DNA from: a virus
IMG/VR virus record: IMGVR_UViG_3300045988_130630
DNA: 42,988 nucleotides
Reading direction: 5' to 3' (one strand)
This document shows positions 24,237-42,988 of the stretch, piece after piece. Below the pieces are notes generated by a model that was given only the letters and a program-made list of their open reading frames with translations, did not search any database and had not been told where the DNA came from. Made by a program: the position numbers and the translations under genes. Position 1 is the first letter of the stretch, and every line of letters starts with the position of its first letter.

Positions 24237-24328
24237 TCTTTGTTTTCCCCTTTCCTTTACTATAATTATAATACCACACACCGCGAAGAATGTCAAGTGT
24301 TTTTTTCAAAAAAAAGAGAAGTTTTTCA

Positions 24329-25757: not shown

Positions 25758-26132
25758 TTTGATTTACCTCTTTCTTTTTGATGATACAAGTATAGCACAT
25801 GACTACTGGATTGTCAATAGTCATTTTGCACAAATGTGATGGCGTAGTTTCGGGTATTTTGACGATTGTGCATTATGACGAAGTTTTGGCGAAAAATTTG
25901 TGCAAACTGCTGATTTTTATAAAACTCGGCTCGCCACTACCGCCAGCGAGCCGAGCAACGTTTACCGGGGTGTTTGTGCGGGATGGCATCTTGCGTTCCG
26001 CAAAAGAGCGAGAGTAAGGCTGGTATACTCTCAGAGAATAAACGAGTTAGAACCTTATGGATGGGGGTGTATTTCGGGAAAAAATTTTTTTTGATTTGTG
26101 TTTTTTCTTTTGCGTGGTCAAAACGCAATCTA

Positions 26133-26334: not shown

Positions 26335-27100
26335 TTAGCAACTGCCTTCAATGGGCTTAGTGGTTTCCGCATTTAATTTTTCCTCCATATATTCGATTAA
26401 TTTATCTTTATATTTACAACTATCAATATATCTATTAATAATATCTGTATCATATTTTTCCATTAGATGCTCTAATACATATTTGTATTTATTCAATTGA
26501 TATTCCCTTTGCTCTTCTTTGGTGCTTAATTGAGCCTTTTCCGCGTCTGATAAAGGTTTATAAGTAATTGTTCTTGACCCATTATCTTTTTGCTCAATAC
26601 GTATTGTTTTAAATAATTTCCAATCTCTTACGAAAGGATCTTTATCTCTGGTAGCATTAAAATATTCTTGTTCCAATCTAAATACTACTGCATCTATCCC
26701 TCTTACTTCAAAAGGCTGGTTCCACCCCATCTTCGATATCCTCCCATTCAAATGTTCCATCATCTAATTCATATACAAATGCTTGTTTATAAAATGATGA
26801 AACAATTCCATCATTTGTAATTCCTTTTGGACTATTTTTTGCATCATGAAAACAATTATAAACAATTAATCCTTGCGTTTCATATCGCGAAAAATCTACT
26901 GCTCTTCCCTCAAAATCATAATTATAAAATATATTTAACAATAGCATACACTCATATTGCGCGATTGGCCATTTATTCAATTCTTTTTGCTAATTTGCCA
27001 TTTTTTGGTATAATACCCAAAAAGCTTTTCTATATAACCATAAAAAAAGGAGTGATGCTACTAACGCACAACTCAATAATATAATAAAAATAGTTTCCAT
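26335..27100 (-). CDS. AT-rich gene pair or fusion. Frame A (26708-27100, N-terminal transmembrane segment, one TAG read-through) and frame B (26335-26763) overlap at a UUU_UGA site, suggesting a possible +1 frameshift fusion of about 255 aa
   Basis: AAAAGGAG ribosome-binding site before the ATG at 27100. Frame A ends ..GCC TTT TGA, and a +1 slip UUU to UUU continues in frame B (GAA GTA AGA GGG..). Frame B has no ribosome-binding site of its own. Confidence 0.4.
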
Positions 27101-27239
27101 AAATACTCCTTTTCTTTTTCTTATAATAATAATAAAATAAAAATAAAGAAATGTCAAGTCGTAGAGTGTGATTGGGCAAAAGTTATTTGTTTTGTTAAAA
27201 AAATTTTTAAATATAAAAAGAAAAAATTTTAAATGAAAC

Positions 27240-27268
27240 TTGACAAAAAAAATTTTTTCGAGTATAAT
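27240..27268 (+). promoter_or_regulatory. sigma70-type promoter (TTGACA, 17-bp spacer, TATAAT) at the head of the plus-strand late/structural operon
   Basis: TTGACA at 27240-27245 and TATAAT at 27263-27268, 24 nt before the GGAGG ribosome-binding site of gene 27293. Confidence 0.55.
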
Positions 27269-27292
27269 ATAAATATAGACTGGAGGTAAAAA

Positions 27293-28348
27293 ATGATAAA
27301 ACTTGATTATTCTTTACAAACTCCAGAAGAAAGAAATCAATTAGTCGAACAAATTTTGGCTGATAATCCAGATCCGCCTGAAAAGTATTTAGAAATTTTA
27401 GCAGACTATTTGGTTCTTTGTATGGAGAAACAAGAAAAAAAGGAGAAAAAATTATTAACTGATAATCGTATGGCTACAGTTAATAAACGTGAGACTTCTT
27501 TTGAAGGTCTTGTTTCCCAACTCGAAAATGGCGAAGATGGAATTTATAATTTAATTACAGATAATAGAAATACAATATTTCAACCACATATTACAATTAC
27601 AAAAAAAGATTTAGAAGAGATACCAAGTTTAAATTAGTTAAGAGAAGCCATTAATGTTTGGGAGGCTAAATTAAAAGTAACAGAAGGCAAAGACGCTTTT
27701 GTTATTAAAAAGGCTCTTATTGAAATGCGTAAAGATTAGTATGTTATGAAAAATGCTTATCGTCGTCCAATAGTGCCTACAAAATTAACCAGATCAAAGT
27801 CTTATATTCCATTAGATGATAAAACATTTATTTTTGATGATGATGGTTTTCCCATTCCTGATGGAATTAGTTTATTAAGACCTGAAATATGTTCTGCGGT
27901 TTTATGTAATTATTCCCGATTAAAGCAAGATAGTTGGGGTGAATATGATAAAGACTTATGGTATTTAATGGAGGATTTTGATAAGCTTTGTGATAAAGCT
28001 TTAGCTAATTATCCTCTTTATGATAGAATCGTTGAATATAAAATTGATGGTTTACAAAATATTGACATTCAAGAGAAAATACAAATGGAATTTGGTATTA
28101 AACATAGCCTTGAATATATTTCAAGTTTATGGCGTAATAAAATTCCAAAATTAATTGCTTCGACTGCGGAAGATGAATATTTAGATAATTATTATTTAAA
28201 TGTTGAAAAAGGTAAATATAAAAAATGTAGTCGTTGTGGTAAAATAAAATTAGCTCATAATAAATATTTTAGTAAAAATAAAACAAGTAAAGATGGCTTT
28301 TATAGTATTTGTAAAAGTTGTCGAAATTCTAAGGCCAAAAAATCTTAA
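27293..28348 (+). CDS. TAG-recoded protein (351 aa, 2 TAGs) with a C-terminal CxxC..CxxC motif
   Basis: Track ORFs 27293-27637 and 27746-28348 are in the same frame and are joined by two TAG codons with no other stop. Confidence 0.55.
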
Positions 28349-28397
28349 TATTGTCCTTTTGTTTATAATAAATAATTGAAAGGAGAATATTTTATTT

Positions 28398-29585
28398 ATG
28401 GCTGAAACATATTATTGCGAAAAATGTAATCGCACAATGAATGGCACGGAATTTTATTCATCTAATAATTTAGAAAAATATCCTAATGATGGTAAATTCC
28501 CTATGTGCAAAAAATGTATGACAATGCACGTCGATAACTGGAATCCAGATACTTATTTATGGATTTTACAAGAGGCGGATGTTCCTTATGTTCCAGATGA
28601 ATGGAATAAATTAATGGAAAAATATGGACGCGATCCACAGTCTATGACCGGTATGACGATTCTTGGACGTTATTTGTCAAAAATGAAACTCAAATAGTTT
28701 AAAGATTATCGTTGGAAAGATACAGAATTTTTACAATAGATGGCAAATAATAAATTAGAGCAAACTATGAAACGTCAAGGGTATGATGCTCAATAGATTG
28801 CAACCGCTATTGAAAAAAGTTCTATTGCTATTCCAGAAGGAGAATTAAAAGAGCCGGTTTATGCTCCACCGCCTGATGCCCCTACGGAAGATTATTTCGC
28901 ACAATAGAGTGGTGAAGTGGAACAAGAATTAGATTTAACTGATGAAGACCGCACTTATTTAAGACTTAAATGGGGCAAAACTTATAAACCTGAAGAATGG
29001 GTTAAGCTTGAATAGTTGTATGAAGAAATGATGGCTTCTTATGATATTCAAGGTGCCGGACATAAAGATACGCTAAAACTAATATGTAAGACATCTTTAA
29101 AGGCAAATCAATTGATCGATATTGGTGATATTGAAGGTTTCCAAAAGATGAGCAAAGTATATGATAGCTTAATGAAGTCTGGTAAATTTACTGCTGCCCA
29201 AAATAAAGCAGAGTCAGGCGAATTTGTTGATTCAATTGGCGAATTAATTGAATTATGTGAAAAAGAAGGATATATTGAAAGATATTATGTTGAATAGCCA
29301 CATGATAAAGTGGACTTGACTATTCAAGATATGCAACGTTATACTCGCACTCTTATTGAAGATGAAACTAATATCAGCACAATGGTAGAAAAAGCTTTAC
29401 GCGAAAATGCTAAAGAAGATGAAGAGAAAGCAAAGAACGCGGAAAGCGATATTGTTGATGATGCTGATTTAAGTATTGAAGAACTTGAAAAAACTATTAA
29501 AGATAGTGATTACGCAGATTTTGAGGAATTTAAAGAATAGGAATCTGCGCAAGATAATGAGTTCTTATAGGGTTTAGATAAATAA
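28398..29585 (+). CDS. TAG-recoded protein (395 aa, 8 TAGs), N-terminal Zn ribbon; possibly the terminase small subunit by position
   Basis: Track ORFs 28398, 29016 and 29310 are in the same frame, joined only by TAGs, and terminate at the TAA at 29583. Its stop overlaps the terminase start (TAATG). Confidence 0.5.
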
Positions 29586-31324
29586 TGGCATTACAAGATT
29601 TACTGTAGTTAAGTGATAGCCGTAGAAAAATAGGTCTATCACCGGAGCGAGTAGAAGCGGTAATGCCCACTATCCGTAAATACGTTGCCTTTTGGAGAGA
29701 ATATCCTGATTTATTTGTAGATTTTATGGTGCGAGGAAGACGCACTGAAATAAAAGATGGAGAATTTAATTTTTATTTTTATTAGAGAGTATTTCTCCGT
29801 TCTGTTATGCGTTATTAGTATGTTTATGCGGTTTTTCCTCGTGCTTATTCTAAATCATTTTTGTCTGTTATGGCATTGATGATTAGATGTATTTTATACC
29901 CTGGCGCACATTTGTTCGTTACTTCTGGAGGTAAAGAGCAAGGTGCTAGTATTCTTCATGATAAAGTTCAAGAAATATGTGAACTTATTCCCAGCTTTAA
30001 TCGAGAAATTGATTGGAGTCGAGGAAAAACTCTTGAAGGAAAAGATAAAGTTAGATATGTATTTAAAAATGGTTCAGTTTTGGATAACCTTGCAGCGCGT
30101 GAAAGCACTCGTGGTCAACGTCGTCATGGTGGATTAATGGAAGAATGTGTTGGTATTGATGATGCCATTCTTCGTGAAGTTATTATTCCTGTTATGGCAA
30201 TTTCCCGTAGAGCTAAAGATGGCACTACTAATGAACAAGAGCCATTAAATAAATCACAAATTTATATTACTACTGCTGGTTATAAGGGCACATTCCCTTA
30301 TGATAGACTTATTGGTTTCTTAGTTCGTATGGTAACTTAGCCCGATCGTTGTATGGTATTAGGCGGAACATGGCGAACTCCTGTTGCAGTAGGATTACAA
30401 AGTAAAACATTTATTACTGACCAAAAGAATGAAGGAACTTATAATGAGGCTTCATTCGAACGTGAATACGAATCTAAGTGGTCAGGAACTGTTGAGGATG
30501 CTTTCTTTAATGGAGAGCATTTTGATAGAAATAGAAAACTATTATAGCCTGAATACGAAGCTTCTGGACGTGCGGGCGCGCAAGCTTATTATGTGCTTTC
30601 TGTAGATGTAGGTCGTAAAGGATGCGATTCAGTAGTTTGTGTATTTAAAGTAACACCACAAGCCCAAGGTCCAGCTATTAAATCTTTAGTAAATATGTAT
30701 ACTATGTCAGATGATCATTTTGAAGATCAGGCTATTAAATTAAAGAAATTATTTTATAAATATAAAGCTAAAACTTTGGTTATAGATGGTAATGGTTTAG
30801 GTATTGGACTTTTGGATTATATGGTAAAATCTCAAAATGATGAAGATGGTGAATTTTTACCTGATTTTGGTGTTGAGAATGATGATGATGGATATTATAA
30901 AAAATATCGCACACCAAATACTCAATTTGATGCTATGTATGTTATTAAAGCAAATGCTCCAATAAATACTGAATGTCATGCTAATGCTCAGACTCAATTA
31001 CAAGCGGGTAAGGTAAAATTCTTAATAGATGAGAGAACAGCTAAAGAAAAATTATTAGCTACTCAAAAAGGTTCAAAAATGACTCCTGAACAAAGGGCAG
31101 ATTATTTAAAACCATTTACTTTAACCTCCATATTAAAAGAAGAAATGATGAATTTACGCGAAGAAAATGAAGGTATTAATATTATTTTAAAATAGGCAAA
31201 TCGCGGAATTCGTAAAGATAAATTTTCGGCTTTCGAATATGGATTATATTATTTAAAACTTGAAGAAGATAAAAAGAAAAAACGTAAAAAGTTTAATGCG
31301 GCTGATTGGTGCTTTTTAAATTAA
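29585..31324 (+). CDS. terL: Terminase large subunit (579 aa, 5 in-frame TAGs)
   Basis: Track ORFs 29861, 30353 and 30593 are in frame. The ATPase region contains HLFVTSGGKEQGAS. The nuclease region LSVDVGRKGCDSVVCVFKV...LVIDGNGLGIGL has the RNase-H-like D..G..D and DxxG motifs typical of TerL. Confidence 0.65.
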
Positions 31325-31336
31325 GGAGGGTGGAAA

Positions 31337-31693
31337 GTGCGTGCTTCAAGAGGAGAAATTAAAATTGAAGAAATCTTAGAAGAAGCAGGACTACCTTTTA
31401 AAATGGAATACATCTTTCCAGATTTAAAAAGCCCAAGCGGGCGTCCGCTTCGTTTTGATTTTGTTATATTTGATGATGATGGAAAAATTGATTTCATTAT
31501 TGAGTATTAGGGAAAATAGCATTATGAAGCCAGTTCTAAATTTGGCGGAAAGCGCGGTTTATACCAGTAGCAATATAATGATAATCAAAAAAGACGTTTT
31601 TGCGCTTTACATGATTTTAGATTAATAGAGATTCCATATACCGACGAAAACCTTATTTCTTATGATTATATAATGAAATTAGCAGGTTATTAA
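31337..31693 (+). CDS. TAG-recoded small Vsr/DUF559-like (PD-(D/E)XK) endonuclease, putative free-standing homing endonuclease between terminase and portal (118 aa, 3 TAGs)
   Basis: AAGGAGGG ribosome-binding site then GTG. Contains ..RPLRFDFVIFDDDGKIDFIIEY(TAG)GK(TAG)HY.., i.e. the IEYDGxQH motif with the conserved Gln encoded by TAG. Confidence 0.55.
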
Positions 31694-31706
31694 AGGAGGT
31701 GGAACT

Positions 31707-33356
31707 TTGGATACGCAAGATCGTAATGAATAGATTCATGCTAAAGGTTTTGATATTTATAATGGTCGTTATGAATATAATTACAATGATACTATGGATT
31801 ATGCTAATAGAAAAATAAAAGTTGGCACAAAAACTTTAGATGATGCTATTTTAAAACTTGGTGATTATAGTAAGATTAGATACCCAGGTCAAAATCGTAT
31901 TATCACGAAACCTGATGTGCTTCGCGCGCTCGCAGAAAGAGATCTAAATGCTTTGCGATACATTTCTAATTTTTATTATGATATAAGTGGTGTATATCAA
32001 CGAGTTTGTAATTATGTTGCTTTTTTATATCGTTATGATTGGTATATTGCAGCCGAAACTTATGATGACAATGTAAAAGAAGAAAAAGTTTTAAAAGATT
32101 TTTATAAAATGTTGAATTATTTTGATAATAGCTATATTAAAAAGGTTTGCGGAGATATTGCTTTACAAGTTGTTAAAAATGGATGCTATTATGGATATAT
32201 AGTTCCTTCTGAGAAAAATCTAATTTTACAAGAATTACCAGTTAGATATTGTAGAACACGTTATAGTGTAAATAATACCCCAGTTGTTGAATTTGATATG
32301 CGATTTTTTGATACTTTTAGAGATATGAATTATCGTTTAAAAGTATTAAAATTATTCCCAGAAGAATTTGCTAAAGGTTATGTTCTATATAAACAAGGAA
32401 AGCTTGCTTTAGAAGAGGCAGTTGGATGCTAGCATACTGGTAGTTGGTATGTTCTTGAACCAGAAAATTGTGTTAAATTTAATATTAATAATAGTGATGT
32501 TCCTATTTTTGTAAATTCGATTCCTACTATTATGGATTTAGATGCAGCGCAAGATCTTGATCGCAAGAAACAAATGTAGAAGTTACTTAAAATTTTAGTC
32601 CAAAAGCTCCCAATGGATAAAAATGGTGATTTGATATTTGATGTTGATGAAGCCAGAGATATTCATAATAATGCCGTTTAGATGTTATAGAGGGCTATTG
32701 GAGTAGATGTTTTAACTACATTTACTGATGTAGATTCTATTGATATGTCTGATAAAAATACTACTACAACGACAGATGATTTAGCTAAAGTTGAACGTAG
32801 TGTTTATAATTCATTAGGTATTTCATAGAATTTATTTAATACTGATGGCAATATGGCTTTAGAAAAATCAGTATTAAATGATGAATCTACAATAAGAAGT
32901 TTAATTTTATAGTTTAATATATTCTTTAATAGAATTATTGAAAAAAAGAGTAGTAATAAGAAATATAATTTTAGATTTTATTTATTAGAAACTACTTAGA
33001 ATAATTATCAAACACTTTCTAAAATGTATAAAGAACAAGCACAAATGGGACAATCAAAACTATTGTCTTAGATTGCTCTTGGACATTCGTAGAGTTTTAT
33101 TCTTAATGCAGCTCATTTTGAAAATGAGATTTTACATTTAAGTGAAATTATGATTCCTCCTCTTATGAGTTCTACTATGGGTAGTGAAGATATTTTGGGT
33201 TTAAAAGGTTCATCATCTAATAATAAAACTCAAAATAATTCAGGAAGTTCAGGTTCTGGAACTGCTAAAGCTTCTAATGGCGAGGCAGGACGTCCAGAAA
33301 AACCTGATGACTAGAAAAGTGAAAAAACTATTCAAAATAAAGAAGCAATGAAATAA
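31707..33356 (+). CDS. Portal protein (about 549 aa, about 9 in-frame TAGs)
   Basis: AAAGGAGG ribosome-binding site then TTG at 31707, in frame with track ORF 31794-32432 and open to the TAA at 33354. Its size and position immediately after terminase support the call. Confidence 0.5.
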
Positions 33357-33365
33357 GGAGGATTT

Positions 33366-34946
33366 ATGAAACATACAAGTATTAAATTAAATACACCTTG
33401 TGAGTTTATAAATATAACTCCTGTAAATCCTTTAATTTCTAAATGCCAAATTAAGGTTTGTTATGTAGATGATAAACCTAATCGTAACAAAAGCGTAATT
33501 ACTAAAGATGTAGCGACTGAGATGGCTAATAGCCTTCCTGGTAGTCCTATTGTTGGCTTTTTTAATGAGAATGCTGAAGATTTTGAAGAACATAATAGGA
33601 TAATTGAATTATCTAACGGCGAATTTAGAATGAGAGATAATACTCGCCCTTATGGTTTTGTTGATCTTGGAGCTAAAGTTTGGTTTTAGAAATTTTTGGA
33701 TGATGGTGTTGCCGAACGTGAGTATTTAATGACTGAAGGTTATTTGTGGACTGGTTAGTATCCTGAATGTAAACGTGTGGTTGATAAAGGGAATAATCAT
33801 TCTATGGAGCTTGATGAAAAAACATTAAATGCTACGTGGGCAAAAGATAGCAATGGAAAACCTTAGTTTTTTATTATAAATAAGGCAATTATTTCTAAAC
33901 TTTGTATTTTGGGAGAAGAAAATGAACCTTGTTTCGAAGGCTCCCAAATCAATGTGAATTTTTCATTCGATGATGGTTTTAAGAACACTTTGTTCTCCAT
34001 GATGAATGAACTTAAAGAATTTATGAAAGAAGGAGGAGCCAAAGTGTTTACACAATACGCTGTTAATATTGGCGACAATTTGTGGAATTCTCTTTATTCT
34101 TATATTGAGAATAAGTATCCTGTCGAACCAAAGAATTATTGTTCTATTTATCGCATTGAAGGTGTCTGCGAAGATGGTGAACAAAAGTTTGCTGTTTTGA
34201 AGAATAAGCAGGATGAAAAATACTATCGTATGGATTTTTCTCTTGACGCAGAGAATTTCGTTCCTTCTGATACTTTGATTGAAGTAACTGATTATGCTCC
34301 TGCGGCTGAGCCTCAGTTTGCTCTTAATGCTGTAGAAGAATTTGAAAATGAGTATGCTTCAAAAAAGAAAGCAGAAGAGGACAAAAATAATAAATCAAAT
34401 AATCCTGACGGTGAAAATAAATCAGAGGGCAATGATAATAAAAAGAACCCTGATAATGGAGAGCCCTCTAATAAGTCTGATAAAGGCAACAACGGTGAGA
34501 ATGATGACGATGATAAAAAGAAAAAGAAAAATTATTCTCTTGAAGATGTTGTTGAATATACTGAACTTAAAGCTCAGTATGATGAATTATAGACTAAATT
34601 TGCAGCTCTTGAAACTGAAAATAATAGCTTGAAAGAGCAAATTGCTCCACTTGCTGAATTTAAAAATGCTGCTGAGAAGAAAGATAAAGAAGATATGATT
34701 GCTAAATTCTATATGCTTTCTGATGAAGATAAGGCTGATGTTGTTGAAAATATTGATAAATATTCTCTTGATGATATTGAAGCTAAATTATCTGTTATTT
34801 GTGTTCGCAACAAGGTGAGTTTCGACCTTGACGAAAATAATAAGCCCAATGGTGCTACTACTTTTAATTTGAACAATAATGGTTCAGAAGATGATGATAT
34901 GCCCGCTTGGGTGAAGGCGGCTTTTGCTACCGCCAACAAAAATTAA
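33366..34946 (+). CDS. TAG-recoded head-morphogenesis protein (526 aa, 4 TAGs) with an acidic, low-complexity, coiled-coil C-terminal half; putative scaffold or prohead protein
   Basis: Track ORFs 33366, 33909 and 34629 are in frame. It contains a KKKAEEDKNNKSNNPDGENKSEGNDNKKN stretch and ETENNSLKEQI heptads. Confidence 0.45.
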
Positions 34947-34963
34947 TAAGGAGGACATACTAA

Positions 34964-35890
34964 ATGTTTAAAGACTTTTTGAATAGTCATTTAGGTATCA
35001 AGGGTATCCCTAAGTCTCAGGCAAAGTATGTTGAGTTTGGTTACGGTCAGGTCGAGCCTAATCACCTTTCCGCGCAAAGAAATGCTCAAATCTATGCTCA
35101 ACTTCCTGCCAATAAAGAGATTGAGATTCTTGAAAACGGTCAGTTTGTAAAGTATGACTATGCTGCTAATGGTAACGGTATCGGCGAAGTCAACTTTACT
35201 GGCGAAGGTGAATGGATGCTCGTTTATAATGAGATTAAGCTTTATCGTGATCATCCAGATGGAACCAAGCAGTGGGATTGCGAATTTGCTATGATTAAAG
35301 ATGACTATCAGGCTCGTGTTTATAGCCCTTATGATTGGGAGCATACCGAGGTTGAATATGGTGGTCGTTTCTGGAATGGTGTTGATGAAAAGGGTCAAAC
35401 TTATAAGTTAATCGAGCAGACTGTTTCCGCTGATCAGGGCTTAAAGACTGTTACTATTGCTGGTCGTGTTTATGACGTTGTTGATAATAAGTTTACTTAT
35501 GATGGTAATGAATATACTCTTGATAGTAATCATCAGGTTGCTAAAGTTCCTGTAAAGTATTACTATGATAAGGTTCTTACTGATGTCCCTGACATGTATG
35601 AAATGAATTGGACTAATAATCCATATCATAAGTTAGGCATCTATCATGAGAAGTTCATGGAATCTGGCACTTCTATGGTTCCTCGTGTATTTAAGACCAT
35701 GATTGGTGATCTTTATACTACTAATATGATTAATGAAGATACTCTTGTTGTTGGAGATAAGCTTTCTCCTTCTGCTGATACAAAGGGTATTCTTAGCAAA
35801 ACTGGCGACGATTCAATGACCTGGCAGGTTGTTAAAGTTTATACTATGCCTGATGGTCAAAAGGGCGTTAAGGTAATGCGTATTAAGTAA
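34964..35890 (+). CDS. structural protein (308 aa, no TAG), capsid-associated
   Basis: Supplied ORF track; AAGGAGG ribosome-binding site; no TAG codon; lies between the scaffold-like and capsid-like genes. Confidence 0.5.
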   Translation: MFKDFLNSHLGIKGIPKSQAKYVEFGYGQVEPNHLSAQRNAQIYAQLPANKEIEILENGQFVKYDYAANGNGIGEVNFTGEGEWMLVYNEIKLYRDHPDGTKQWDCEFAMIKDDYQARVYSPYDWEHTEVEYGGRFWNGVDEKGQTYKLIEQTVSADQGLKTVTIAGRVYDVVDNKFTYDGNEYTLDSNHQVAKVPVKYYYDKVLTDVPDMYEMNWTNNPYHKLGIYHEKFMESGTSMVPRVFKTMIGDLYTTNMINEDTLVVGDKLSPSADTKGILSKTGDDSMTWQVVKVYTMPDGQKGVKVMRIK

Positions 35891-35907
35891 GAAAGGAGAA
35901 AAGGATA

Positions 35908-37017
35908 ATGTTAGATAAAAATAATTTAATTGCTCTTATGAAGCAAGTTGCTAAGGCTGATCCTTCTGCTCCTGTTGCTTATAGTTATGAGGGAAAAAAT
36001 CTTAGTTATGAAGCCTTGAATGAAACTCTTCGTAATGAAATGAATGAGTTGGCTGGCACTTACGCTCTTTATCGTGAAAATAAGAATCTTATTTTCTCTA
36101 TGATTGAGCAGACTCTTGATGAGGTTCTTCCTAAGAAAGTTATTCAGCAATATGATCAGTTTGCTGAGGTTAAGACTTTCGCTCAGGGTGATAAACCTAT
36201 CTTCCGTCGTCCTCTTAATAATCGTGCTCGTGCTAAGCAGTTTGTAACTCGCGTTGGTCTTGCTGGTATTTATGAAGTCTTCAAGCTCGGACCTAAAGAG
36301 AATGAAGCCTTCGAGGTACGTACTAGCGCTATCGGCGGAGCTGCTCAGATCGGCTTCGAAGAGTTCCTCGATGGTCGTGTTGATTTCGGTGAAGTAACCA
36401 AGATCATCATGGATGGTATGGATGAACTTATTTATAAAGAAGTCGCTGCCGCTCTTAGATCTTCTATCAATCAGCTTCCTCCTGCTAACCGCGTTGCGGC
36501 TGCCGGATTTGATGAAGCTGCTATGGATCGTTTGATCACCATTGCTTCTGCTTATGGTACTCCTACTATTTATTGTACTTATGAGTTTGCTGTTAAGATG
36601 ATTCCTCATGAGGCTTGGAGATATACTGAAGCTATGAAGAATGAGCTTTGGAATAATGGTCGTCTTGCTACCTATAAGGGCACTAAGGTTATTATTCTTG
36701 AGCAGGGCTTTGAAGATGAAACCAATACTCGTAAGGTTATTGATCCTGGTTATGCTTGGGTTATTCCTACGGGCGCTGATGGTAAGCCTGTAAAGATTGC
36801 TTTCGAAGGTGGCACTATTGTTGACGAGTTCAACAATTATGATCGTTCTCGTGAGATTTAGGTTTACAAGAAGGTTGGCGTAGTTTGCATGCTCGCTAAT
36901 AACATCTGTGCTTATGTTGATACTTCACTTCTCGGTCAGATGTATACTTGGAATTATGATGGAGTTACTGGCAAGGTTATCACTTATGATGGTCGCCTTA
37001 GTGGTGCTACTGTTTAA
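35908..37017 (+). CDS. putative major capsid protein (369 aa, one TAG near the C-terminus)
   Basis: Track ORF 35908-36861 extended through one TAG to the TAA at 37015. AAAGGAGAAAAGG ribosome-binding site. Immediately followed by a strong terminator. Position after the scaffold-like gene. Confidence 0.45.
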
Positions 37018-37034
37018 TTTAATATAAATTATTC

Positions 37035-37080
37035 CATGGGGAGAAGGGATTAAACTCCCTCTCCCCATATTTTTGTTTTA
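37035..37080 (+). terminator. Rho-independent terminator (GGGGAGAAGGG..CCCTCTCCCC followed by ATATTTTTGTTTT) after the capsid gene
   Basis: Read directly. Confidence 0.6.
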
Positions 37081-37103
37081 TGAGTAAAAGGAGAAATTGA
37101 ATA

Positions 37104-37697
37104 ATGATTAATAATGAAGATATTTATAATGTAAAAAATAGAAGCACTAGTGTAGTTGTTTATACTATTCCTGATACTAATTTGCGTCGTGAATTTGCGC
37201 CCGGTGAAACTAAGCGTATTCCATTTGGTGAGCTAGAAAAATTAACTTATCAAGCAGGCGGCCGCGAATTAATTGCTAATTTTTTACAAATTTTAGAGCC
37301 AGAAGTAACTCATACTCTTAATGTTCATACTGAACCTGAATACAATATGTCAGAGCAACAAGTTGCTGATTTAATTCTTAATGGCTCATTAGATGCTTTC
37401 TTAGATGCTCTTGATTTTGCTCCTATTGGAATTATTGACTTAATCAAGAATTTATCTGTTAGCCTTCCTATTACTGATATTAATAAGCGTAGAGCTTTGA
37501 AGGAAAAAACTGGGTTTGATGTTGATAAAGCTATTGCTAATGATATCGCTAGTAAAGAAGAAGATACTATCGTAGAAAAAGAACCTGCAACTAAGCGCCG
37601 TGTAGTAAGAGAAGAACCTACTACTCAAGGTCGTCGTACAAGCGGTTCTGGATATAAAGTAATTAATAAAACCGAGGAAACTTCCTCCAAGAAATAA
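37104..37697 (+). CDS. hypothetical structural protein (197 aa, no TAG)
   Basis: Supplied ORF track; AAAGGAGAAA ribosome-binding site. Confidence 0.5.
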   Translation: MINNEDIYNVKNRSTSVVVYTIPDTNLRREFAPGETKRIPFGELEKLTYQAGGRELIANFLQILEPEVTHTLNVHTEPEYNMSEQQVADLILNGSLDAFLDALDFAPIGIIDLIKNLSVSLPITDINKRRALKEKTGFDVDKAIANDIASKEEDTIVEKEPATKRRVVREEPTTQGRRTSGSGYKVINKTEETSSKK

Positions 37698-37716
37698 TTT
37701 ATAGGAGGGCGATTAA

Positions 37717-38289
37717 GTGGGAACATTATTCTCAACTGTTTATAATCGCTTTCTAAACAAGGTTACTGATGATATGTATCTGGAATTGACCCCTGAAGAT
37801 ACTCTAAGAGATTTATAGAATCTTATAATAGATGCTATTCCTGGATTTGAATTTCCGCGAAAAAATCTTTTAGATTATAATTTAGATGTTGCTACTATTA
37901 ATGAATCTGAGGCTATGCCAAATGATTTTATTGTAGGAACAGTATGGGGAGAACTTCCAGAACCGGGTGAAGAACCTCAAGTTTTAGTTGATAGATCCAG
38001 CTTTAATTGTGATCTAACTGAAGAAGAAATTAATATTTTAGCTATTTTAATGATGTGCGGTTGGACGCAAAGACAAGTCACTTCAATTGAGAACACTCGA
38101 ATGAAATACAGTGGCTCTGATTTTAAATTTACTTCTTAGGCAAATCATTTATCAAAGTTATTAAACTTATTAGGTGAATGCCAAAGACAATCTCACCATA
38201 TGTAGCGTTTATATAAACGTAGACGTTTAAATAATAAAGGTGAATATGAATCTAATTGGGATGTGTTTAAAAGTCGATATGATTACTAA
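37717..38289 (+). CDS. TAG-recoded hypothetical protein (190 aa, 3 TAGs), possibly a head-tail connector
   Basis: AGGAGGG ribosome-binding site then GTG; in frame with track ORF 37915-38139; open to the TAA at 38287. Confidence 0.4.
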
Positions 38290-38587
38290 ATATAATTTTG
38301 ATATTCCAATAGAGAGTATAAAAGTAAATTGTTTGCGCTTAACCAATCAATTATGGAAATTAATTCCAATGCGCGAAAATAATGAAGATTGGCATAAATA
38401 GCTAGAAACTGTTATAAATGAAATTGTGGGGTTTAGTGTGATTTTTAGCGCTGAACCCCTTTATTTATAGTTATTAAACAAACTTGAGGGATTGTAGAAT
38501 CAAGATACTGATTTTAATTTTTATCGTAAGACTGTATTTGAAACGATTAGTCTTTTATAGGAGATAAATTATGGCATCAGGGTTTGA
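38279..38587 (+). CDS. TAG-recoded hypothetical protein (about 102 aa, 4 TAGs); start uncertain
   Basis: Frame open from the ATG at 38279 to the TGA at 38585 with TAG read through. Confidence 0.3.
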
Positions 38588-39635
38588 TTATAGTAGTAAG
38601 CAACCTTTTAGATTACAACAAGGTCGCTTAGGAATTTATGATAAGCCACCCTTTGAAGGTAGCCCTGTTGAAGGCGTTAATTATACAGCGGTTCGGCTCG
38701 GTTAGATGGGCGGAAACCGCCAACAAGAGCGTATGATTTTATCTAAGCGCAGAAGTTTAGATAGAGCAGTATGGAATTCATATCAAGCCGCGGAAATTAT
38801 TAAATAGGATGCGGAATATAAAAAACCTATTAGGTGTTTGATTAATCCTAATAAATTAAAATAGGATTATGATGACAAGATTTTGTCTGTTGGAAATGAA
38901 TATTAGTTTAAACCGGGAGATATTTTTGAATGGTGTGGAACTAATACCTATTGGATTTGTTATCTTTAGGATTTGACTGAATTAGCTTATTTTAGAGGAG
39001 ATATTAGGAAATGCTCTTATAAGATAAATTGGGTAGATGAGGGAGAGAAGAAATCTACTTATGCAGCAATTCGCGGTCCTGTAGAAACGAAAATTGATTA
39101 TATTCAGAAACATGAAATTAGTATAGATAATCCCAATTATTCATTAAATATTTTAATGCCAAAAAATAAAGATACGTTAAGATATTTTAAACGTTATACT
39201 AAATTTTATTTAGATAGTTAGGATGAGGGAGATAATTTAATTTGTTGGCGTGTTGAAGCTGTAGATTCTATAAGTATGCCTGGCATTTTAGAAATCAATG
39301 CGACTGAATATTATACTAATGAGTAGGAAGACAATTTAGACGATAAGACTGTTGGTTCTTTAATTACAGAACCAATTGATCCAAATCCTACGACAACTGA
39401 TATTATAGGGGAAACATTTATTTTTCCAAAGAGAACTTATACTTATTATTTTGATGGTGAAGTTGTTTTAGAATGGAAAATAAAAAATAATAAAAAGTTG
39501 CCGGTTTCTTTAAAAATTATTAAAGAAGCAAAAAAGCCAACAGTTGAAATAAGTTGGACTTCTGGATATAGCGGATAGTTCGATTTATGTTATGGAGACT
39601 ATAAGAAAACGATTGTAGTTCAATCATTGTTTTAA
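38571..39635 (+). CDS. TAG-recoded hypothetical structural protein (354 aa, 9 TAGs)
   Basis: ATG at 38571 after a GGAG ribosome-binding site; in frame with track ORF 38973-39221; open to the TAA at 39633. Confidence 0.45.
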
Positions 39636-39650
39636 GGAGTAAAAGGTGTT

Positions 39651-40232
39651 ATGAAAATTAATGGTGTAAATTTACCTAAATCAAGTTTTTTTTCTGTTGA
39701 AAAAGATTTAGAAATTATTGTAAAACATCTCTGTAAAAATGAGAGATTAAAGCGCTTATTGTATTATACAACAAAAGATGCTATTGATAAGCCAGATTTA
39801 AATGATGAACAAATGATTCAATTATTTAATAAAAATATTAAGTTAATTCCTAAGCTTTATGTTGATGGAAGTGTATTAAATTATTTAATTATTAATTTTG
39901 ATAATTTTACACAAAGCGGAAATCCTGAGTTTAGAGATAATATTGTTGAATTCGATATTATTTGTCATTTTGATCAATGGCATTTAAAAGATTATCAATT
40001 GCGCCCTTATCGTATCGCCGCAGAAATTGACAGCATGATAGATAAAACACATTTAACTGGTATTGGCAAATTAGAATTTCTTGGTGCGAATCAAATTATT
40101 TTAACTGATGAATATGCTGGTTTATGCCTTATGTATCAGGCAGTTCATGGCGAAGAAGATAAAAAATTTATGCCGAATCCTAATGACGAGGAAAGATTTA
40201 TAGAAGATTTTAAAAAAAGAACTGAAAAATAA
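39651..40232 (+). CDS. hypothetical protein (193 aa, no TAG)
   Basis: Supplied ORF track; AAGGAG ribosome-binding site. Confidence 0.5.
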   Translation: MKINGVNLPKSSFFSVEKDLEIIVKHLCKNERLKRLLYYTTKDAIDKPDLNDEQMIQLFNKNIKLIPKLYVDGSVLNYLIINFDNFTQSGNPEFRDNIVEFDIICHFDQWHLKDYQLRPYRIAAEIDSMIDKTHLTGIGKLEFLGANQIILTDEYAGLCLMYQAVHGEEDKKFMPNPNDEERFIEDFKKRTEK

Positions 40233-40957
40233 TGGATATTAGACTTGGGTTAATGACAGGTATTGATTTGCCAATACCTGAATTAGAAGTCACTATTCAT
40301 TAGCCATCTATAAAAGAGATTTCTTTTATAGGTGAAAAAGATCTTTTCTTGGGGATTTAGTGCTTATGTATTGATAAAAACATAATAGAGAATTCGGGCG
40401 AAAGTCTTTTAAGAGAAACAAATAATTTTTAGATATTTATGACAATGATGAAAGAAAAAGAGATGGCCGATAAAAAACAAGCATCTATATAGGTTCTTAC
40501 ATTATTGTTTCCAAAGCAAAATGTTTTATTTACCCCGAGGTCAATTGTTTTACAAGGTGACCCACAAATAATGATTGACGAAAGCAATTTTAATATATTA
40601 TAGGAATATATTAAAGAAATATTTTGTTTTAAATCTAATGCTTCGCAAGAAATGGGATTCAATCCTGGAAATGCGGCCGCGAAAAAGATAGCCGATAAAT
40701 TAATGCGAGGTAGACAACGTGTCGCTGAATTAAATGGCACGGCTAATGCTAGTATATTTAGTTAGTATCTTTCAATGCTTACTATAGGTCTTGATTCAAT
40801 GTCTTTACAGGATTTAATGGATTTAACAATGTTCCAACTCTATGACCTTGTTGAAAGATATCAACTTTATATTAATTGGGATATTGATATCCGGTCTAGA
40901 TTAGCGGGCGCGAAGCCTGATAATAAGCCGGATAACTGGATGAAAAATATCCATTAA
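40232..40957 (+). CDS. TAG-recoded hypothetical protein (241 aa, 7 TAGs)
   Basis: ATG overlaps the upstream stop (TAATG); in frame with track ORF 40775-40957. Confidence 0.45.
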
Positions 40958-40981
40958 ATTTTTTAAGGAGGAAAAAAACCT

Positions 40982-41965
40982 ATGAAATTTGGTGTACGCG
41001 AAATTTGCGATGTCGTTTTAAAGGCAAAGGCTAATCAAAAGATTGGTAATAAGCAATTTTATAAGAATGAGCCAGTTATTTATTTCGACACTTTAAAGAC
41101 TTCCAGTATGGAAGGCGCTGCTACCACCGTATACGCACAAGGTGGACGTGGTAATACTAACTTAGTCGCATGGGAAGGCGAGCGTACTGTTACCTTCACA
41201 ATGGAAGATGCTCTTATTTCTCCTGAAGGTTTCATGATTCTTTCCGGTGCTGGTCTTGTTGAGGCTTCTGCTAAAAATAAGATTAAGCAACATATTACTC
41301 AAACTGTTGATAAGACTAAAGACATTGTCCCTGCTAATACTGAAAAAGACATTAAAACTGATGGATTGATTATTCCTGTCTCTTATGCCCCTTATCTTGA
41401 TAATGAACATAAAGATGACGATTATGTTTATGTTTTCTTCATGAAGGATGGCGAAATTATTTCTGAGCCTTATTTAGCACATGAAGGAGTTACCACTGGA
41501 GACGCTGGTTTTAGTGTTACCGTAAAGGGATTTGCTCGTTCTACTGGAGCGGCTTATACCACTAACGATTTAGAGAATGATTATGCTAAATGCGATTCTG
41601 TAATGGTTGATTATTACACTGAGCGTGAATCTGGCGCTAAGCAGATTGAAATTACTGCTGATAAGTTCGGTGGTAACTACTATCTTGAAGCTTCTACCTT
41701 ATTCCGTAATCAAGATGGTGTAGATATGCCTGCTGAATTTATTATTCCTAACTGCAAGATTCAATCCAACTTTAACTTTACAATGGCTTCTTCTGGTGAT
41801 CCTTCTACTTTCACCTTTACTATGGATGCATTCCCTGATTATACTCGTTTCGATCATAGTAAGAAAGTTTTGGCTGCTATTCAGATTATTGAAGAAGACG
41901 AAACTGTTGACAACGATATTCGTAGAAAGACCGCTGCTGATAGCACCATTGCTGTTGGAGGCTAA
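40982..41965 (+). CDS. putative major tail (tube) protein (327 aa, no TAG)
   Basis: Strong AAGGAGGAAAAAAACC ribosome-binding site; no TAG; followed by a small gene and a strong terminator. Position downstream of the head genes. Confidence 0.4.
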   Translation: MKFGVREICDVVLKAKANQKIGNKQFYKNEPVIYFDTLKTSSMEGAATTVYAQGGRGNTNLVAWEGERTVTFTMEDALISPEGFMILSGAGLVEASAKNKIKQHITQTVDKTKDIVPANTEKDIKTDGLIIPVSYAPYLDNEHKDDDYVYVFFMKDGEIISEPYLAHEGVTTGDAGFSVTVKGFARSTGAAYTTNDLENDYAKCDSVMVDYYTERESGAKQIEITADKFGGNYYLEASTLFRNQDGVDMPAEFIIPNCKIQSNFNFTMASSGDPSTFTFTMDAFPDYTRFDHSKKVLAAIQIIEEDETVDNDIRRKTAADSTIAVGG

Positions 41966-41970
41966 TTAAT

Positions 41971-42153
41971 ATGGTTGTAAAAGGTCCAGTAAAATATACT
42001 CCACCAAAACAGCCTAAAAAAGAATCTACTAAAAAGCAGCCAAAAGTAGAAAAGGCTGTAAAGAAAGAGCTTATCGAGCCTATTGAGGAAGTAGTTCTTC
42101 AAGAGGAAGATGAGGTAAGTAAGATTTTATCTGAATTAGATAAAAAAGATTAA
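41971..42153 (+). CDS. small basic/acidic protein (60 aa, no TAG)
   Basis: Supplied ORF track. Confidence 0.4.
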   Translation: MVVKGPVKYTPPKQPKKESTKKQPKVEKAVKKELIEPIEEVVLQEEDEVSKILSELDKKD

Positions 42154-42154
42154 T

Positions 42155-42195
42155 TAATGGGAGAGAATAGAAATATTCTCTCCCATTTTTTTGTT
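42155..42195 (+). terminator. Rho-independent terminator (GGGAGAGAATA..TATTCTCTCCC followed by ATTTTTTTGTT)
   Basis: Read directly. Confidence 0.6.
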
Positions 42196-42217
42196 ATGTG
42201 AAAAAGGAGGATTAAAT

Positions 42218-42988
42218 TTGGTAATTAAAAATAATTATAGTAATAATAGTCAAGAAAGTTAGAAAATTGCTGAGGATTTTATTTATTGGACTGAAGATAT
42301 GATAAAAGAGCAGTTATAGTAGGAACATTTTAAAGAATTATATGAAAAAATAAGAAAATCATCAGAAATATTAATTAAACATTTTACTATTTTTGATAAT
42401 ATTTAGAAAAAGCATAATAGTAAAATAAATAAATCAATGACTATGACTTTAAATTTATTAGAATAGAAAAAAATATTAATCTATTAGGAATTTTTTAATT
42501 TATAGAATTTAATTAATGAGTTTTTAAGTCAAGAAATAAAAATTACTGCTGTTTATGTTGATCCAATTACAGGCCAAAGAGAGATTAGATTAATGGATAA
42601 TGATATAAAAAATATTCAAGCAGTTGAAAAAACATCTGTATAGGGTTATAATTATGCTAAATTAGAATATGATATGAATTAGCATTATGAAAATTTAAAA
42701 AATGCTTTGCCAGATGATGATAATAAAGGACTATAGAATACAGCAATGCAAGTGGAATTAAGATATAATAAATATAAAAAGAGAATATTATGGTATAAAA
42801 ATTAGTGGAAAGGATATACAATGTCTACTCGTGGTCCTATTAATGAAGCATTTGTATCTTTTTATATAAATAATATTAAATTTAATTCAGATCTTGAAAC
42901 AAATATTGATTATTTTATGTTAGATCCTACTATGGGTGCAATTAATGCTGATAATATGAATGGATTTTTAATTGGAGACGTGTCTGGG
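42218..42988 (+). CDS. TAG-recoded protein, partial (at least 257 codons with 13 in-frame TAGs; continues past the window end)
   Basis: AAAGGAGG ribosome-binding site then TTG at 42218. There is no TAA or TGA in 771 nt of 25%-GC sequence in this frame, which is open only if TAG is read through. Confidence 0.45.

What the first reader, a model, noticed from the sequence alone, without database searches (positions are those of the whole stretch)
34964..41965. The most highly expressed structural genes are TAG-free islands inside the recoded operon
Five genes carry zero TAG: 34964-35890, 37104-37697, 39651-40232, 40982-41965 and 41971-42153. The capsid-like gene 35908-37017 has a single TAG at its extreme C-terminus. 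Their neighbours carry 4-13 TAGs each.

These are the genes followed by strong terminators and fronted by strong ribosome-binding sites, i.e. probably the most abundant virion proteins. This suggests selection against dependence on suppressor efficiency for bulk proteins. Alternatively, some of these genes may be expressed before the suppressor is active.
Basis: seen in the sequence. Interest (0 to 1): 0.6.

Follow-up and report, generated by a model that had tools for sequence, protein, structure and literature searches.

The report
TAG-free bulk virion genes, recoded phage
In a phage that reads the stop codon TAG as glutamine in its late genes, the capsid gene, the gene just upstream of it and the tail-tube gene avoid TAG almost completely across 26 related species. 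The same three genes carry a strong "high-expression" codon bias, so the reassigned codon looks costly to use in mass-produced proteins.

Summary
In the late operon (27293-42988, + strand), five ORFs have no in-frame TAG and the capsid gene has one. Their neighbours carry 2-10. Random placement of the 65 TAGs among Gln codons gives four or more TAG-free genes of at least 150 codons in 6 of 100,000 trials.

Eighty related loci (30 species-level clusters, 26 recoded) refine the picture:
- TAG makes up 1-2% of Gln codons in 34964, 35908 (HK97-fold major capsid protein) and 40982 (tail-tube homologue).
- It makes up 9% in 37104, 18% in 33366, and 24-51% in every other late gene.
- 39651 (40% in relatives) and the 60-codon ORF 41971 are not part of the conserved pattern.

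The few TAGs in the three core genes are all unshared singletons. Depletion is specific to the reading frame.

An unsupervised codon-usage axis computed without Gln codons separates the same genes and tracks TAG share (rho = -0.90). Conserved terminators follow only the capsid and tail-tube genes.

Best reading: translational selection on bulk virion proteins excludes the suppressor-dependent codon. It is a modest refinement of known late-gene recoding, and has been noted anecdotally for a crAss-like capsid gene.

The parts
34964..35890 (+). 308-aa head-module gene between the protease/scaffold-like gene and the capsid gene. TAG-free and the most codon-biased gene of the operon. Function unknown; a decoration/cement or scaffold protein is inferred.
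   Evidence: 0 TAG, 14 Gln codons. Across 26 recoded representatives there are 5 TAG against 362 CAA/CAG, and 22 of 26 have none. All 5 TAG columns are singletons. Codon PC1 is +1.21. Matches phrog_35301, function unknown. The AlphaFold model was poor (pLDDT 47) and gave no significant fold match.
35908..37017 (+). Major capsid protein (HK97 fold). One TAG at codon 318 (36859-36861), a strain-specific change at a conserved CAG.
   Evidence: The model of an 87%-identical orthologue (pLDDT 70.7) gave 284 Foldseek PDB hits at E<=1e-3; all 50 listed are phage or GTA capsids, encapsulins or virus-like particles. Sub-threshold match to NCBIfam NF042927, E = 4e-4. Syntenic with the annotated MCP of Bacillus phage PJN02. 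5 TAG against 355 CAA/CAG in recoded representatives. At the window's TAG column the other sequences have 20 CAG and 4 CAA.
37036..37081 (+). Intrinsic-terminator-like hairpin plus T-run directly after the capsid gene.
   Evidence: The 86-nt intergenic region folds at -26.1 kcal/mol into a GC-rich hairpin followed by ATATTTTTGTTTT. An equivalent hairpin plus T-run lies downstream of the capsid gene in 26 of 30 cluster representatives, and after almost no other gene family.
37104..37697 (+). 197-aa gene downstream of the capsid terminator. TAG-free here and moderately TAG-poor in relatives. Function unknown.
   Evidence: 0 TAG but only 5 Gln codons (p = 0.07-0.15). TAG share is 9% in recoded representatives, and 16 of 26 have none. 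13 of 15 TAG columns are singletons. Codon PC1 is +0.07, which is intermediate. Matches phrog_30998, function unknown.
39651..40232 (+). Virion structural protein (phrog_6123). TAG-free only in this strain group, so not part of the conserved pattern.
   Evidence: 0 TAG in 7 Gln codons (p = 0.07). Orthologues have a 40% TAG share. L015 (95% identical) has 2 TAG and L016 (94%) has 3. Codon PC1 is -0.47.
40982..41965 (+). Tail-tube (major tail) protein homologue. TAG-free and codon-biased.
   Evidence: Matches phrog_2729, virion structural protein, E = 2e-55. BLASTP E = 5e-29 to the ORF annotated 'tail tube protein' in phage PJN02, in the same position upstream of the tape-measure region. Weak PDB hit to tail-tube chains, 8k98, E = 0.04. 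4 TAG against 184 CAA/CAG in recoded representatives. Codon PC1 is +0.98.
41971..42153 (+). 60-codon Lys-rich ORF between the tail-tube gene and a terminator. Its zero TAG count is uninformative.
   Evidence: 3 Gln codons, p = 0.33-0.45. Found only in 13 close relatives.
42156..42194 (+). Strong intrinsic terminator (14-bp stem plus T-run) closing the tail-tube unit.
   Evidence: A terminator-like site lies within 110 nt of the tail-tube stop codon in 15 of 22 representatives.
27293..34946 (+). TAG-bearing late genes upstream: sigma-like (2 TAG), phrog_3314 at the small-terminase position (8), large terminase (6), HNH fragment (3), portal (10), protease/scaffold-like (4).
   Evidence: TAG share of Gln codons in relatives is 18-36%.
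37774..39635 (+). TAG-bearing head-tail joining genes (3, 4 and 8 TAG).
   Evidence: TAG share in relatives is 34-46%.
40232..40957 (+). TAG-rich gene (6 TAG) wedged between two TAG-free genes. Highest TAG share of the operon in relatives.
   Evidence: TAG share is 51%.
42299..42988 (+). TAG-rich gene running off the window end (10 TAG in 230 codons).

Best explanation
The window is part of a large siphovirus-type phage of the phAss-1 / 'Caudoviricetes code 15' group. It decodes TAG as glutamine in late genes through a phage-encoded tRNA(CUA).

In low-copy late genes, TAG behaves almost like a neutral synonym of CAA and makes up 24-51% of Gln codons. The genes whose products are needed in hundreds of copies per virion are under translational selection on every codon family. 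These are the HK97-fold capsid protein, the gene just upstream of it (34964), and the tail-tube protein. The genes 37104 and 33366 (protease/scaffold-like) are affected to a lesser degree.

TAG is the worst available Gln codon, because it depends on one suppressor tRNA competing with host release factor 1. Each TAG therefore costs speed and yields truncated subunits. New CAG-to-TAG mutations keep arising in these genes but are purged.

Shown here: the TAG distribution, its conservation across relatives, the singleton pattern, frame specificity, the linked codon bias, the capsid fold, the terminators, and the tRNA(CUA) in close relatives. Inferred: high expression of the four genes, incomplete or slow suppression, and fitness cost as the cause.

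The TAG-free state of 39651 and 41971 in this window is chance or strain history, not part of the phenomenon.
For: - Recoding is real. Full-length terminase, portal and other genes appear only when TAG is read through. Where TAG columns have a dominant residue in other sequences, it is Gln in 67 of 113. TAG never ends a gene: 55 TAA and 23 TGA stops.
- Across 26 recoded species-level clusters, the core genes have 0-5 TAG per 1000 codons against 9-23 in the other late genes. The difference holds in 26 of 26 clusters, Wilcoxon p = 3e-8.
- 34964, 37104 and 40982 are as diverged as their neighbours (median identity 53-63%), so protein conservation does not explain the pattern.
- TAG columns in 34964, the capsid gene and the tail-tube gene are all singletons (5/5, 6/6, 4/4). 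Other late genes have 3-11 columns where at least 25% of species share a TAG. Within one species the rare TAGs sit at different codons.
- In-frame TAG is about 12-fold below out-of-frame TAG in core genes only.
- PCA of codon usage without Gln codons: PC1 (71% of variance) is +1.21, +1.12 and +0.98 for the three core genes, about +0.08 for 37104 and 33366, and negative for the rest. Spearman correlation with TAG share is -0.90 (p = 4e-6), and -0.76 (p = 0.006) without the core genes. The favoured codons (TTC, AAC, CGT, GCT, GGT, CTT, AAG) and the avoided ones (ATA, AGA, TTA) are of the type usually preferred or avoided in highly expressed bacterial genes.
- The same genes stand out in unrecoded relatives, in phAss-1 (capsid gene: 0 TAG, 0 CAA, 15 CAG) and in cultured Enterococcus and Bacillus phages.
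- Conserved terminators follow only the capsid gene (26/30) and the tail-tube gene (15/22).
- Contigs of close relatives encode a tRNA with a CUA anticodon.
Against: - There is no transcript, proteome or suppression-efficiency measurement; expression level is inferred from codon bias, protein role and terminators.
- The host is unknown, so 'host-optimal codons' was not checked against host ribosomal-protein genes.
- The functions of 34964 and 37104 are unknown.
- The species clusters share ancestry, so the p-values overstate independence. The singleton pattern and the 26/26 consistency are less sensitive to this.
- Borges et al. report a crAss-like 'tail tube' family that is enriched in TAG, so the rule cannot simply be 'tail-tube genes avoid TAG' in every recoded phage.
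Confidence: 0.7

Rival explanations
1. Timing. The TAG-free late genes are kept readable in the standard code so they can be translated before the suppressor tRNA accumulates. This would give capsid and tail-tube subunits a head start, while the TAG-containing genes stay locked.
For: Early minus-strand genes are also TAG-free: 3 TAG among 142 Gln-type codons in 56 genes. So 'TAG-free means suppressor-independent' applies elsewhere in this genome. Each core gene has its own Shine-Dalgarno site.
Against: The core genes sit inside the late operon, 17 nt after TAG-containing genes, with no promoter-like gaps. The portal and the protease/scaffold-like gene 33366, their likely assembly partners, all carry TAG. 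Timing does not predict the strong bias in Lys, Arg, Ile, Ala, Pro, Thr and Leu codons, nor the graded relation between that bias and TAG share. The same codon bias exists in unrecoded relatives, where no timing lock is possible.
Confidence: 0.12
2. Enrichment rather than depletion. TAG is positively selected as a translational lock in the other late genes. The TAG-free genes are simply unselected and reflect the ancestral unrecoded state.
For: Borges et al. propose recoded stops as a regulator of late and lysis genes, and find a few families significantly enriched. Homing endonuclease genes carry TAG even within the otherwise TAG-free minus-strand block.
Against: Core genes are rich in CAG (50-66% of CAA+CAG). 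CAG is one transition away from TAG, so core genes have more mutational opportunity than their neighbours, yet TAG share is 1-2%. TAGs do arise in them but stay as singletons. In-frame TAG is 12-fold below out-of-frame TAG. In the other late genes the TAG share (24-51%) is no higher than the rough parity with CAA expected for two equally AT-rich synonyms, so no positive selection is required. That last point is inference.
Confidence: 0.08
3. History or chance. The TAG-free genes were recently acquired by recombination from unrecoded relatives, or are TAG-free by sampling noise.
For: This probably holds for 39651, which is TAG-free only in the closest strains, with clear allele swapping of 39651-40982 within the species cluster. 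It also probably holds for the 60-codon ORF 41971. Unrecoded relatives exist in the same clade (4 of 30 clusters).
Against: For 34964, 35908 and 40982 the pattern recurs in 26 of 26 recoded clusters spanning 50-100% protein identity, and in phAss-1. In-window permutation gives p = 6e-5. Identity of the window's genes to unrecoded relatives is no higher for 40982 or 39651 than for neighbouring genes.
Confidence: 0.05

Closest known systems
Stop-codon recoding of late genes in phages (Ivanova 2014; Yutin 2021, PMC7886860; Borges et al., preprint 10.1101/2021.08.26.457843; Peters 2022, PMC9523058)
   Same: TAG is read as Gln. In-frame TAG is confined to the structural/late block, while early genes are readable in either code. 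TAG is absent as a terminator. A suppressor tRNA(CUA) is present in the lineage, and unrecoded close relatives exist.
   Different: Those studies treat the late block as uniformly recoded and tested only for gene families enriched in the recoded codon. Here the block contains conserved TAG-free genes that coincide with the bulk virion proteins. The crAss-like 'tail tube' family is reported as TAG-enriched, the opposite of the siphovirus tail-tube gene here.
phAss-1 / proposed Phassvirus, 'Caudoviricetes code 15 clade' (PMC10607447; OQ749652)
   Same: The capsid protein is 50% identical, with the same head-to-tail gene order, TAG recoding, and tRNA-Sup(CTA) genes including one with a long variable arm. 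The phAss-1 capsid orthologue has 0 TAG and 15 CAG, while the 38571 and 40232 orthologues have 7 and 6 TAG.
   Different: The paper lists which ORFs are 'destroyed' by TAG but does not analyse the distribution against expression. The window's lineage is a different, much more abundant group, with thousands of database homologues.
Translational selection on codon usage in phage structural/capsid genes (Lucks et al. 2008, PMC2266997)
   Same: Capsid and major tail genes have a codon usage distinct from the rest of the genome, of the type associated with high expression.
   Different: Here the bias extends to a reassigned stop codon, so it also reports on the cost of suppression. Host preference could not be checked because the host is unknown.
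Remark on an amber-reassigned Crassvirales genome (bioRxiv 10.64898/2026.08.21.746148)
   Same: The authors note that the major capsid gene 'shows no alternative codon usage' and invoke pressure for efficient translation.
   Different: That is a single-genome remark with no comparative or statistical support, in an unrelated phage order. It makes no link to other bulk proteins, codon-bias axes or terminators.

Membership tests
Code-15 (TAG to Gln) recoded phage with late-gene recoding | Conserved full-length genes are interrupted by in-frame TAG under the standard code and restored when TAG is read through | tested here: met
   Terminase, portal and other genes reach full profile coverage only with TAG as sense. 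Total length of open stretches of at least 100 codons rises from 38.6 kb (table 11) to 57.1 kb when TAG is sense.
Code-15 (TAG to Gln) recoded phage with late-gene recoding | TAG aligns with Gln in homologues | tested here: met
   Gln is the dominant residue at 67 of 113 TAG columns that have a dominant residue; Tyr at 3. Unrecoded relatives have CAA or CAG most often at these columns.
Code-15 (TAG to Gln) recoded phage with late-gene recoding | TAG is not used as a terminator, and early genes are free of in-frame TAG | tested here: met
   78 complete called genes end in TAA (55) or TGA (23). 56 early genes hold 3 TAG, 2 of them in a homing endonuclease.
Code-15 (TAG to Gln) recoded phage with late-gene recoding | A suppressor tRNA with a CUA anticodon is available | tested here: inconclusive
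   There is no tRNA in the window or in 30 capsid-centred loci. Contigs of three same-species relatives and one other recoded relative encode a 90-nt tRNA(CUA). The window's own genome beyond 43 kb was not available.
Code-15 (TAG to Gln) recoded phage with late-gene recoding | Peptides showing Gln at TAG positions | not testable with these tools
   Needs proteomics, as in Peters et al. 2022.
Translational selection on highly expressed genes | Synonymous codon usage of the candidate genes differs from other genes of the same operon across many amino acids | tested here: met
   Chi-square p < 0.01 for 14 of 19 codon families (including Gln), for example AAG 0.67 vs 0.21, ATA 0 vs 0.24, CGT 0.72 vs 0.33. 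PC1 carries 71% of the between-gene variance.
Translational selection on highly expressed genes | Favoured codons match those of the host's highly expressed genes or tRNA pool | not tested
   The host is unknown. One homologue is labelled as a Clostridiales MAG. Only the general pattern (NNC over NNT; avoidance of ATA, AGA and CGA) is consistent with established knowledge.
Translational selection on highly expressed genes | Measured high expression or abundance | not testable with these tools
   No transcriptome or proteome was available. Abundance is inferred from capsid and tail-tube roles and from the flanking terminators.
HK97-fold major capsid protein (for 35908) | HK97 fold | tested here: met
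   The model of the 87%-identical orthologue P0208 (pLDDT 70.7, pTM 0.61) gives 284 PDB matches at E<=1e-3; all 50 listed are phage or GTA capsids, encapsulins or virus-like particles. The window protein itself could not be submitted because of its TAG.
HK97-fold major capsid protein (for 35908) | Position in the head module after the portal and protease/scaffold genes | tested here: met
   The gene order matches PJN02 and VRE9_4.
Siphovirus tail-tube protein (for 40982) | Sequence homology to a characterised or annotated tail-tube protein | tested here: inconclusive
   BLASTP E = 5e-29 to the ORF annotated 'tail tube protein' in PJN02, which is the depositor's annotation only. PDB phmmer hit to tail-tube chains at E = 0.04; a profile search found none.
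Siphovirus tail-tube protein (for 40982) | Tail-tube fold | not tested
Intrinsic (Rho-independent) terminator (37036-37081, 42156-42194) | GC-rich hairpin followed by a U-run on the transcribed strand | tested here: met
   Conserved after the capsid gene in 26 of 30 representatives and after the tail-tube gene in 15 of 22. Termination activity is not testable here.

The most novel reading that the evidence does not exclude
The late proteome is written in two codon dialects that set virion stoichiometry. Bulk subunits use codons read by the host's abundant tRNAs and are independent of phage tRNAs. Low-copy proteins use TAG plus A-ending codons (ATA, AGA, TTA, CCA, CAA) whose readers are the phage's own tRNAs: Sup-CUA, Ile-UAU, Arg-UCU, Leu-UAA, Pro-UGG and Gln-UUG, all seen in relatives' tRNA clusters. 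The phage tRNA module, suppressor included, would then act as a throttle on minor components rather than only as an on/off timer.
Probability: 0.2. Interest if true: 0.65.

Novelty: new variant of a known kind. Interest (0 to 1): 0.5.

Why it matters
The result gives comparative evidence that a reassigned stop codon is not a fully equivalent sense codon in these phages. It is tolerated where few protein copies are needed and purged where hundreds are. That implies incomplete or slow suppression during infection.

It qualifies the 'code switch as late-gene lock' model, because the most abundant late proteins are not themselves locked.

There is also a practical consequence. A TAG-free capsid or major-tail gene does not show that a phage uses the standard code. 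Standard-code gene callers will annotate exactly these marker genes correctly while fragmenting their neighbours.

Tried and rejected
- Megablast of the late operon against GenBank phages found no match.
- Pfam found nothing for any structural protein.
- NCBIfam gave only a sub-threshold capsid hit.
- PDB sequence and profile searches for 34964, 35908, 37104 and 40982 found nothing usable, apart from a weak tail-tube hit.
- The AlphaFold model of 34964 from a shallow alignment was poor (pLDDT 47). Its fold search gave only non-significant hits, including small capsid-decoration chains that I do not rely on.
- A search for virion proteomics of the cultured relatives (Enterococcus VRE9/EF1, Bacillus PJN02 and BcoS-136) found nothing useful.
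- Shine-Dalgarno strength was rejected as a discriminator.
- Protein conservation was rejected as the cause of TAG avoidance, because 34964, 37104 and 40982 are as diverged as their neighbours.
- TAG = Tyr was considered because the suppressor in relatives has a long variable arm and sits next to tRNA-Tyr. It was rejected on alignment evidence: Gln dominates at 67 columns, Tyr at 3.

Full report
**What the window is.** The 42,988-bp window has 36.7% G+C and no tRNA gene. Reading TAG as a sense codon raises the total length of open stretches of at least 100 codons from 38.6 to 57.1 kb. It also restores a contiguous plus-strand operon from 27293 to the window end. PHROG matches and synteny give this gene order:
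- sigma-factor-like gene (27293)
- phrog_3314 protein at the small-terminase position (28398)
- large terminase (29585)
- HNH fragment (31403)
- portal (31794)
- protease/scaffold-like protein (33366)
- unknown (34964)
- capsid protein (35908)
- unknown (37104)
- three head-tail genes (37774, 38246, 38571)
- virion protein (39651)
- unknown (40232)
- tail-tube homologue (40982)
- a 60-codon ORF (41971)
- a gene cut by the window end (42299)

These assignments rest. The order is the same in Bacillus phage PJN02 and Enterococcus phage VRE9_4, where a long tape-measure gene follows. The nearest named phage is phAss-1, filed under 'Caudoviricetes code 15 clade', with 50% capsid identity.

Most of the rest of the window is a minus-strand block of small genes. 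These are TAG-free in frame and never end in TAG. Across the window, 55 genes end in TAA, 23 in TGA and none in TAG.

**Check of the observation.** The capsid gene has one, at codon 318 of 369. The other late genes have 2-10. The late operon holds 65 TAGs in 5030 codons, which is 31% of all Gln-type codons. A chi-square test against gene length gives p = 1e-5, and against Gln-codon number p = 0.03. To avoid post-hoc selection, I dealt the TAGs at random among all Gln codons. Four or more TAG-free genes of at least 150 codons appeared in 6 of 100,000 trials. The depletion is frame-specific: 0.8 in-frame against 12-15 out-of-frame TAG per 1000 codons in the four core genes, and 17 against 17-21 in the other late genes. 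Taken singly, though, 41971, 39651 and 37104 are too short or too poor in Gln to be significant.

**Comparative test.** A capsid-protein scan of IMG/VR returned 80 loci on contigs of up to about 200 kb. They fall into 30 species-level clusters. Twenty-six are recoded and four have essentially no in-frame TAG. In the recoded representatives, the TAG share of Gln codons is:
- 1% in 34964
- 1% in the capsid gene
- 2% in the tail-tube gene
- 9% in 37104
- 18% in 33366
- 24-51% in all other late genes, including 40% in 39651

The core set is lower than the rest in 26 of 26 clusters (Wilcoxon p = 3e-8). Shared ancestry inflates this p-value, but two observations are robust to it. First, every TAG column in 34964, the capsid gene and the tail-tube gene is a singleton among 21-27 species-level sequences. 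Other late genes have 3-11 columns where at least a quarter of species share TAG. Second, within the window's own species the rare TAGs in core genes lie at different codons in different strains. The window's capsid TAG sits where 20 relatives have CAG and 4 have CAA. This is the signature of recurrent mutation removed by selection.

Protein conservation is not the cause. 34964, 37104 and 40982 are as diverged (median identity 53-63%) as their TAG-rich neighbours. 39651 is TAG-free only in the closest strains: relatives 94-95% identical carry 2-3 TAGs.

**Link to expression.** The four core genes differ from the other late genes in almost every codon family:

| Codon | Core genes | Other late genes |
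|---|---|---|
| AAG | 0.67 | 0.21 |
| ATA | 0.00 | 0.24 |
| CGT | 0.72 | 0.33 |
| GCT | 0.80 | 0.51 |
| CCT | 0.86 | 0.47 |
| TTC | 0.47 | 0.15 |
| CAG | 0.50 | 0.07 |

I ran a principal-component analysis of codon fractions pooled over the recoded representatives, leaving Gln codons out so that it is blind to TAG. One dominant axis carries 71% of the variance. On it 34964, the capsid gene and the tail-tube gene score +1.0 to +1.2, 37104 and 33366 score about +0.08, and all others are negative. Its Spearman correlation with TAG share is -0.90 (p = 4e-6). Without the four core genes it is still -0.76 (p = 0.006). The relation is therefore graded, not just a contrast between two classes.

The same genes separate in the unrecoded relatives. 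In phAss-1 the capsid orthologue has 0 TAG, 0 CAA and 15 CAG, while the orthologues of 38571 and 40232 have 7 and 6 TAG. In the cultured, standard-code Enterococcus and Bacillus phages, the capsid and tail-tube orthologues have the highest CGT and TTC shares. The favoured codons are of the kind generally preferred in highly expressed bacterial genes, and the avoided ones (ATA, AGA, TTA) are the kind generally avoided. That is established knowledge; the host is unknown, so it was not tested directly.

A strict hairpin plus T-run search downstream of each gene family found terminator-like sites after the capsid gene in 26 of 30 representatives and after the tail-tube gene in 15 of 22. There was one hit in total for the other 13 families. 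In the window these sites are at 37036-37081 and 42156-42194. Shine-Dalgarno strength does not discriminate.

**Identities.**
- **35908:** an AlphaFold model of an 87%-identical orthologue (pLDDT 70.7) matches HK97-fold capsids and encapsulins only.
- **40982:** the tail-tube call rests on homology to an annotated tail-tube gene (E = 5e-29), on position, and on a weak PDB hit.
- **34964:** remains unknown. Its model was poor. From its place between the protease/scaffold-like gene and the capsid gene, its beta-rich variable middle region and its capsid-level codon bias, I infer a capsid accessory (decoration/cement) or scaffold protein.
- **37104:** unknown.

**Mechanism.** TAG aligns chiefly with Gln. 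Contigs of three same-species relatives, and of a fourth recoded relative, carry a 90-nt tRNA with a CUA anticodon inside a tRNA cluster. The most economical reading is that decoding of TAG depends on this one phage tRNA in competition with host release factor 1. Every TAG then lowers yield and creates truncated chains, and the cost scales with the number of copies made. In low-copy genes TAG drifts towards parity with CAA. In bulk genes it is purged together with other slow codons. I give this 0.7.

The timing alternative is that these genes are translated before the suppressor is available. It is not excluded, but it does not explain the general codon bias or its presence in unrecoded relatives, and the assembly partners of these proteins all contain TAG. 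Positive selection for TAG in the neighbours alone is contradicted by the 12-fold in-frame deficit and by the CAG-richness of the core genes. Chance or recombination history explains only 39651 and 41971.

**Relation to the literature.** Late-gene recoding, dual-readable early genes, suppressor tRNAs and unrecoded sister lineages are all known. Borges et al. tested only for families enriched in the recoded codon. They report a crAss-like 'tail tube' family as enriched, the opposite of the siphovirus tail-tube gene here. The phAss-1 paper names terminase and tape measure as recoded among its four marker proteins, which implies a TAG-free capsid gene without comment. A 2026 preprint remarks that one amber-reassigned crAss-like capsid gene lacks TAG and invokes efficient translation. 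Codon adaptation of phage structural genes is long established (Lucks et al. 2008, found). The present result is therefore a quantified, comparative refinement of known phenomena, not a new kind of system.

Noticed in passing
window 261-1190 (-), 21563-22363 (-), 31403-31693 (+): Homing-endonuclease genes carry TAG wherever they sit. An HNH gene has 9 TAG. A gene matching homing-endonuclease families, one of them GIY-YIG-type, has 2 TAG inside the otherwise TAG-free minus-strand block. An HNH fragment between terminase and portal has 3. This echoes the recoded intron endonuclease reported by Borges et al.
   Followed up: partly
window 27129-27268 and 27293-28348: A perfect sigma-70 consensus promoter (TTGACA-17-TATAAT, 27240-27268) precedes the sigma-factor-like gene, which itself holds 2 TAG (0-7 in recoded relatives). 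A divergent near-consensus promoter (27157-27129) faces the minus-strand block. This suggests a cascade in which host RNA polymerase transcribes a suppressor-dependent sigma factor, which then drives the late operon. The TAG-free bulk genes would then be locked indirectly.
   Followed up: no
window 7500-26000 versus 27000-42988: The minus-strand block of small genes has 41-45% G+C (GC3 0.47). The late operon has 29-38% (GC3 0.20). This is an unusually large compositional split within one phage genome.
   Followed up: no
L109:7965-8054, L113:9078-9167, L135:3369-3458, L102:7777-7866: The tRNA(CUA) of close relatives is 90 nt long with a long variable arm, like one of the phAss-1 suppressors, and lies near tRNA-Tyr(GUA). 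Alignments nevertheless say TAG = Gln. How a class-II-like tRNA would be charged with Gln is unexplained.
   Followed up: partly
L109, L113, L135, L102 (tRNA clusters): The phage tRNA sets include Ile-UAU, Arg-UCU, Leu-UAA, Leu-UAG, Pro-UGG, Gln-UUG and Val-UAC. Most of these read A-ending codons that the low-copy late genes prefer and the bulk genes avoid. Leu-AAG is an exception. ARAGORN also calls a tRNA-SeC(tca) at L113:7726-7805.
   Followed up: partly
L026-L039, L059, L061-L065: Four species-level clusters with 81-88% identical capsid proteins have essentially no in-frame TAG. Code 15 has therefore been gained or lost at short evolutionary distance within this clade.
   Followed up: partly
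window 39651-41965 versus L004, L007, L010, L012: Within one species cluster, the 39651-40232-40982 segment exists as two alleles, 97-100% against 70-84% protein identity. They have different TAG counts (0/6/0 against 4/9/0). This indicates module exchange in the tail region.
   Followed up: partly
window 34964-35890 homologues (P0001-P0120); capsid homologues P0121-P0240: The 34964 family is very large: 7,998 of the 8,000 scored database candidates had E<=1e-5, and one source labels a member as a Clostridiales MAG. So this phage group is very common in sequenced samples. All capsid homologues carry the precomputed Pfam accession PF27364, which the local Pfam scan did not report.
   Followed up: no
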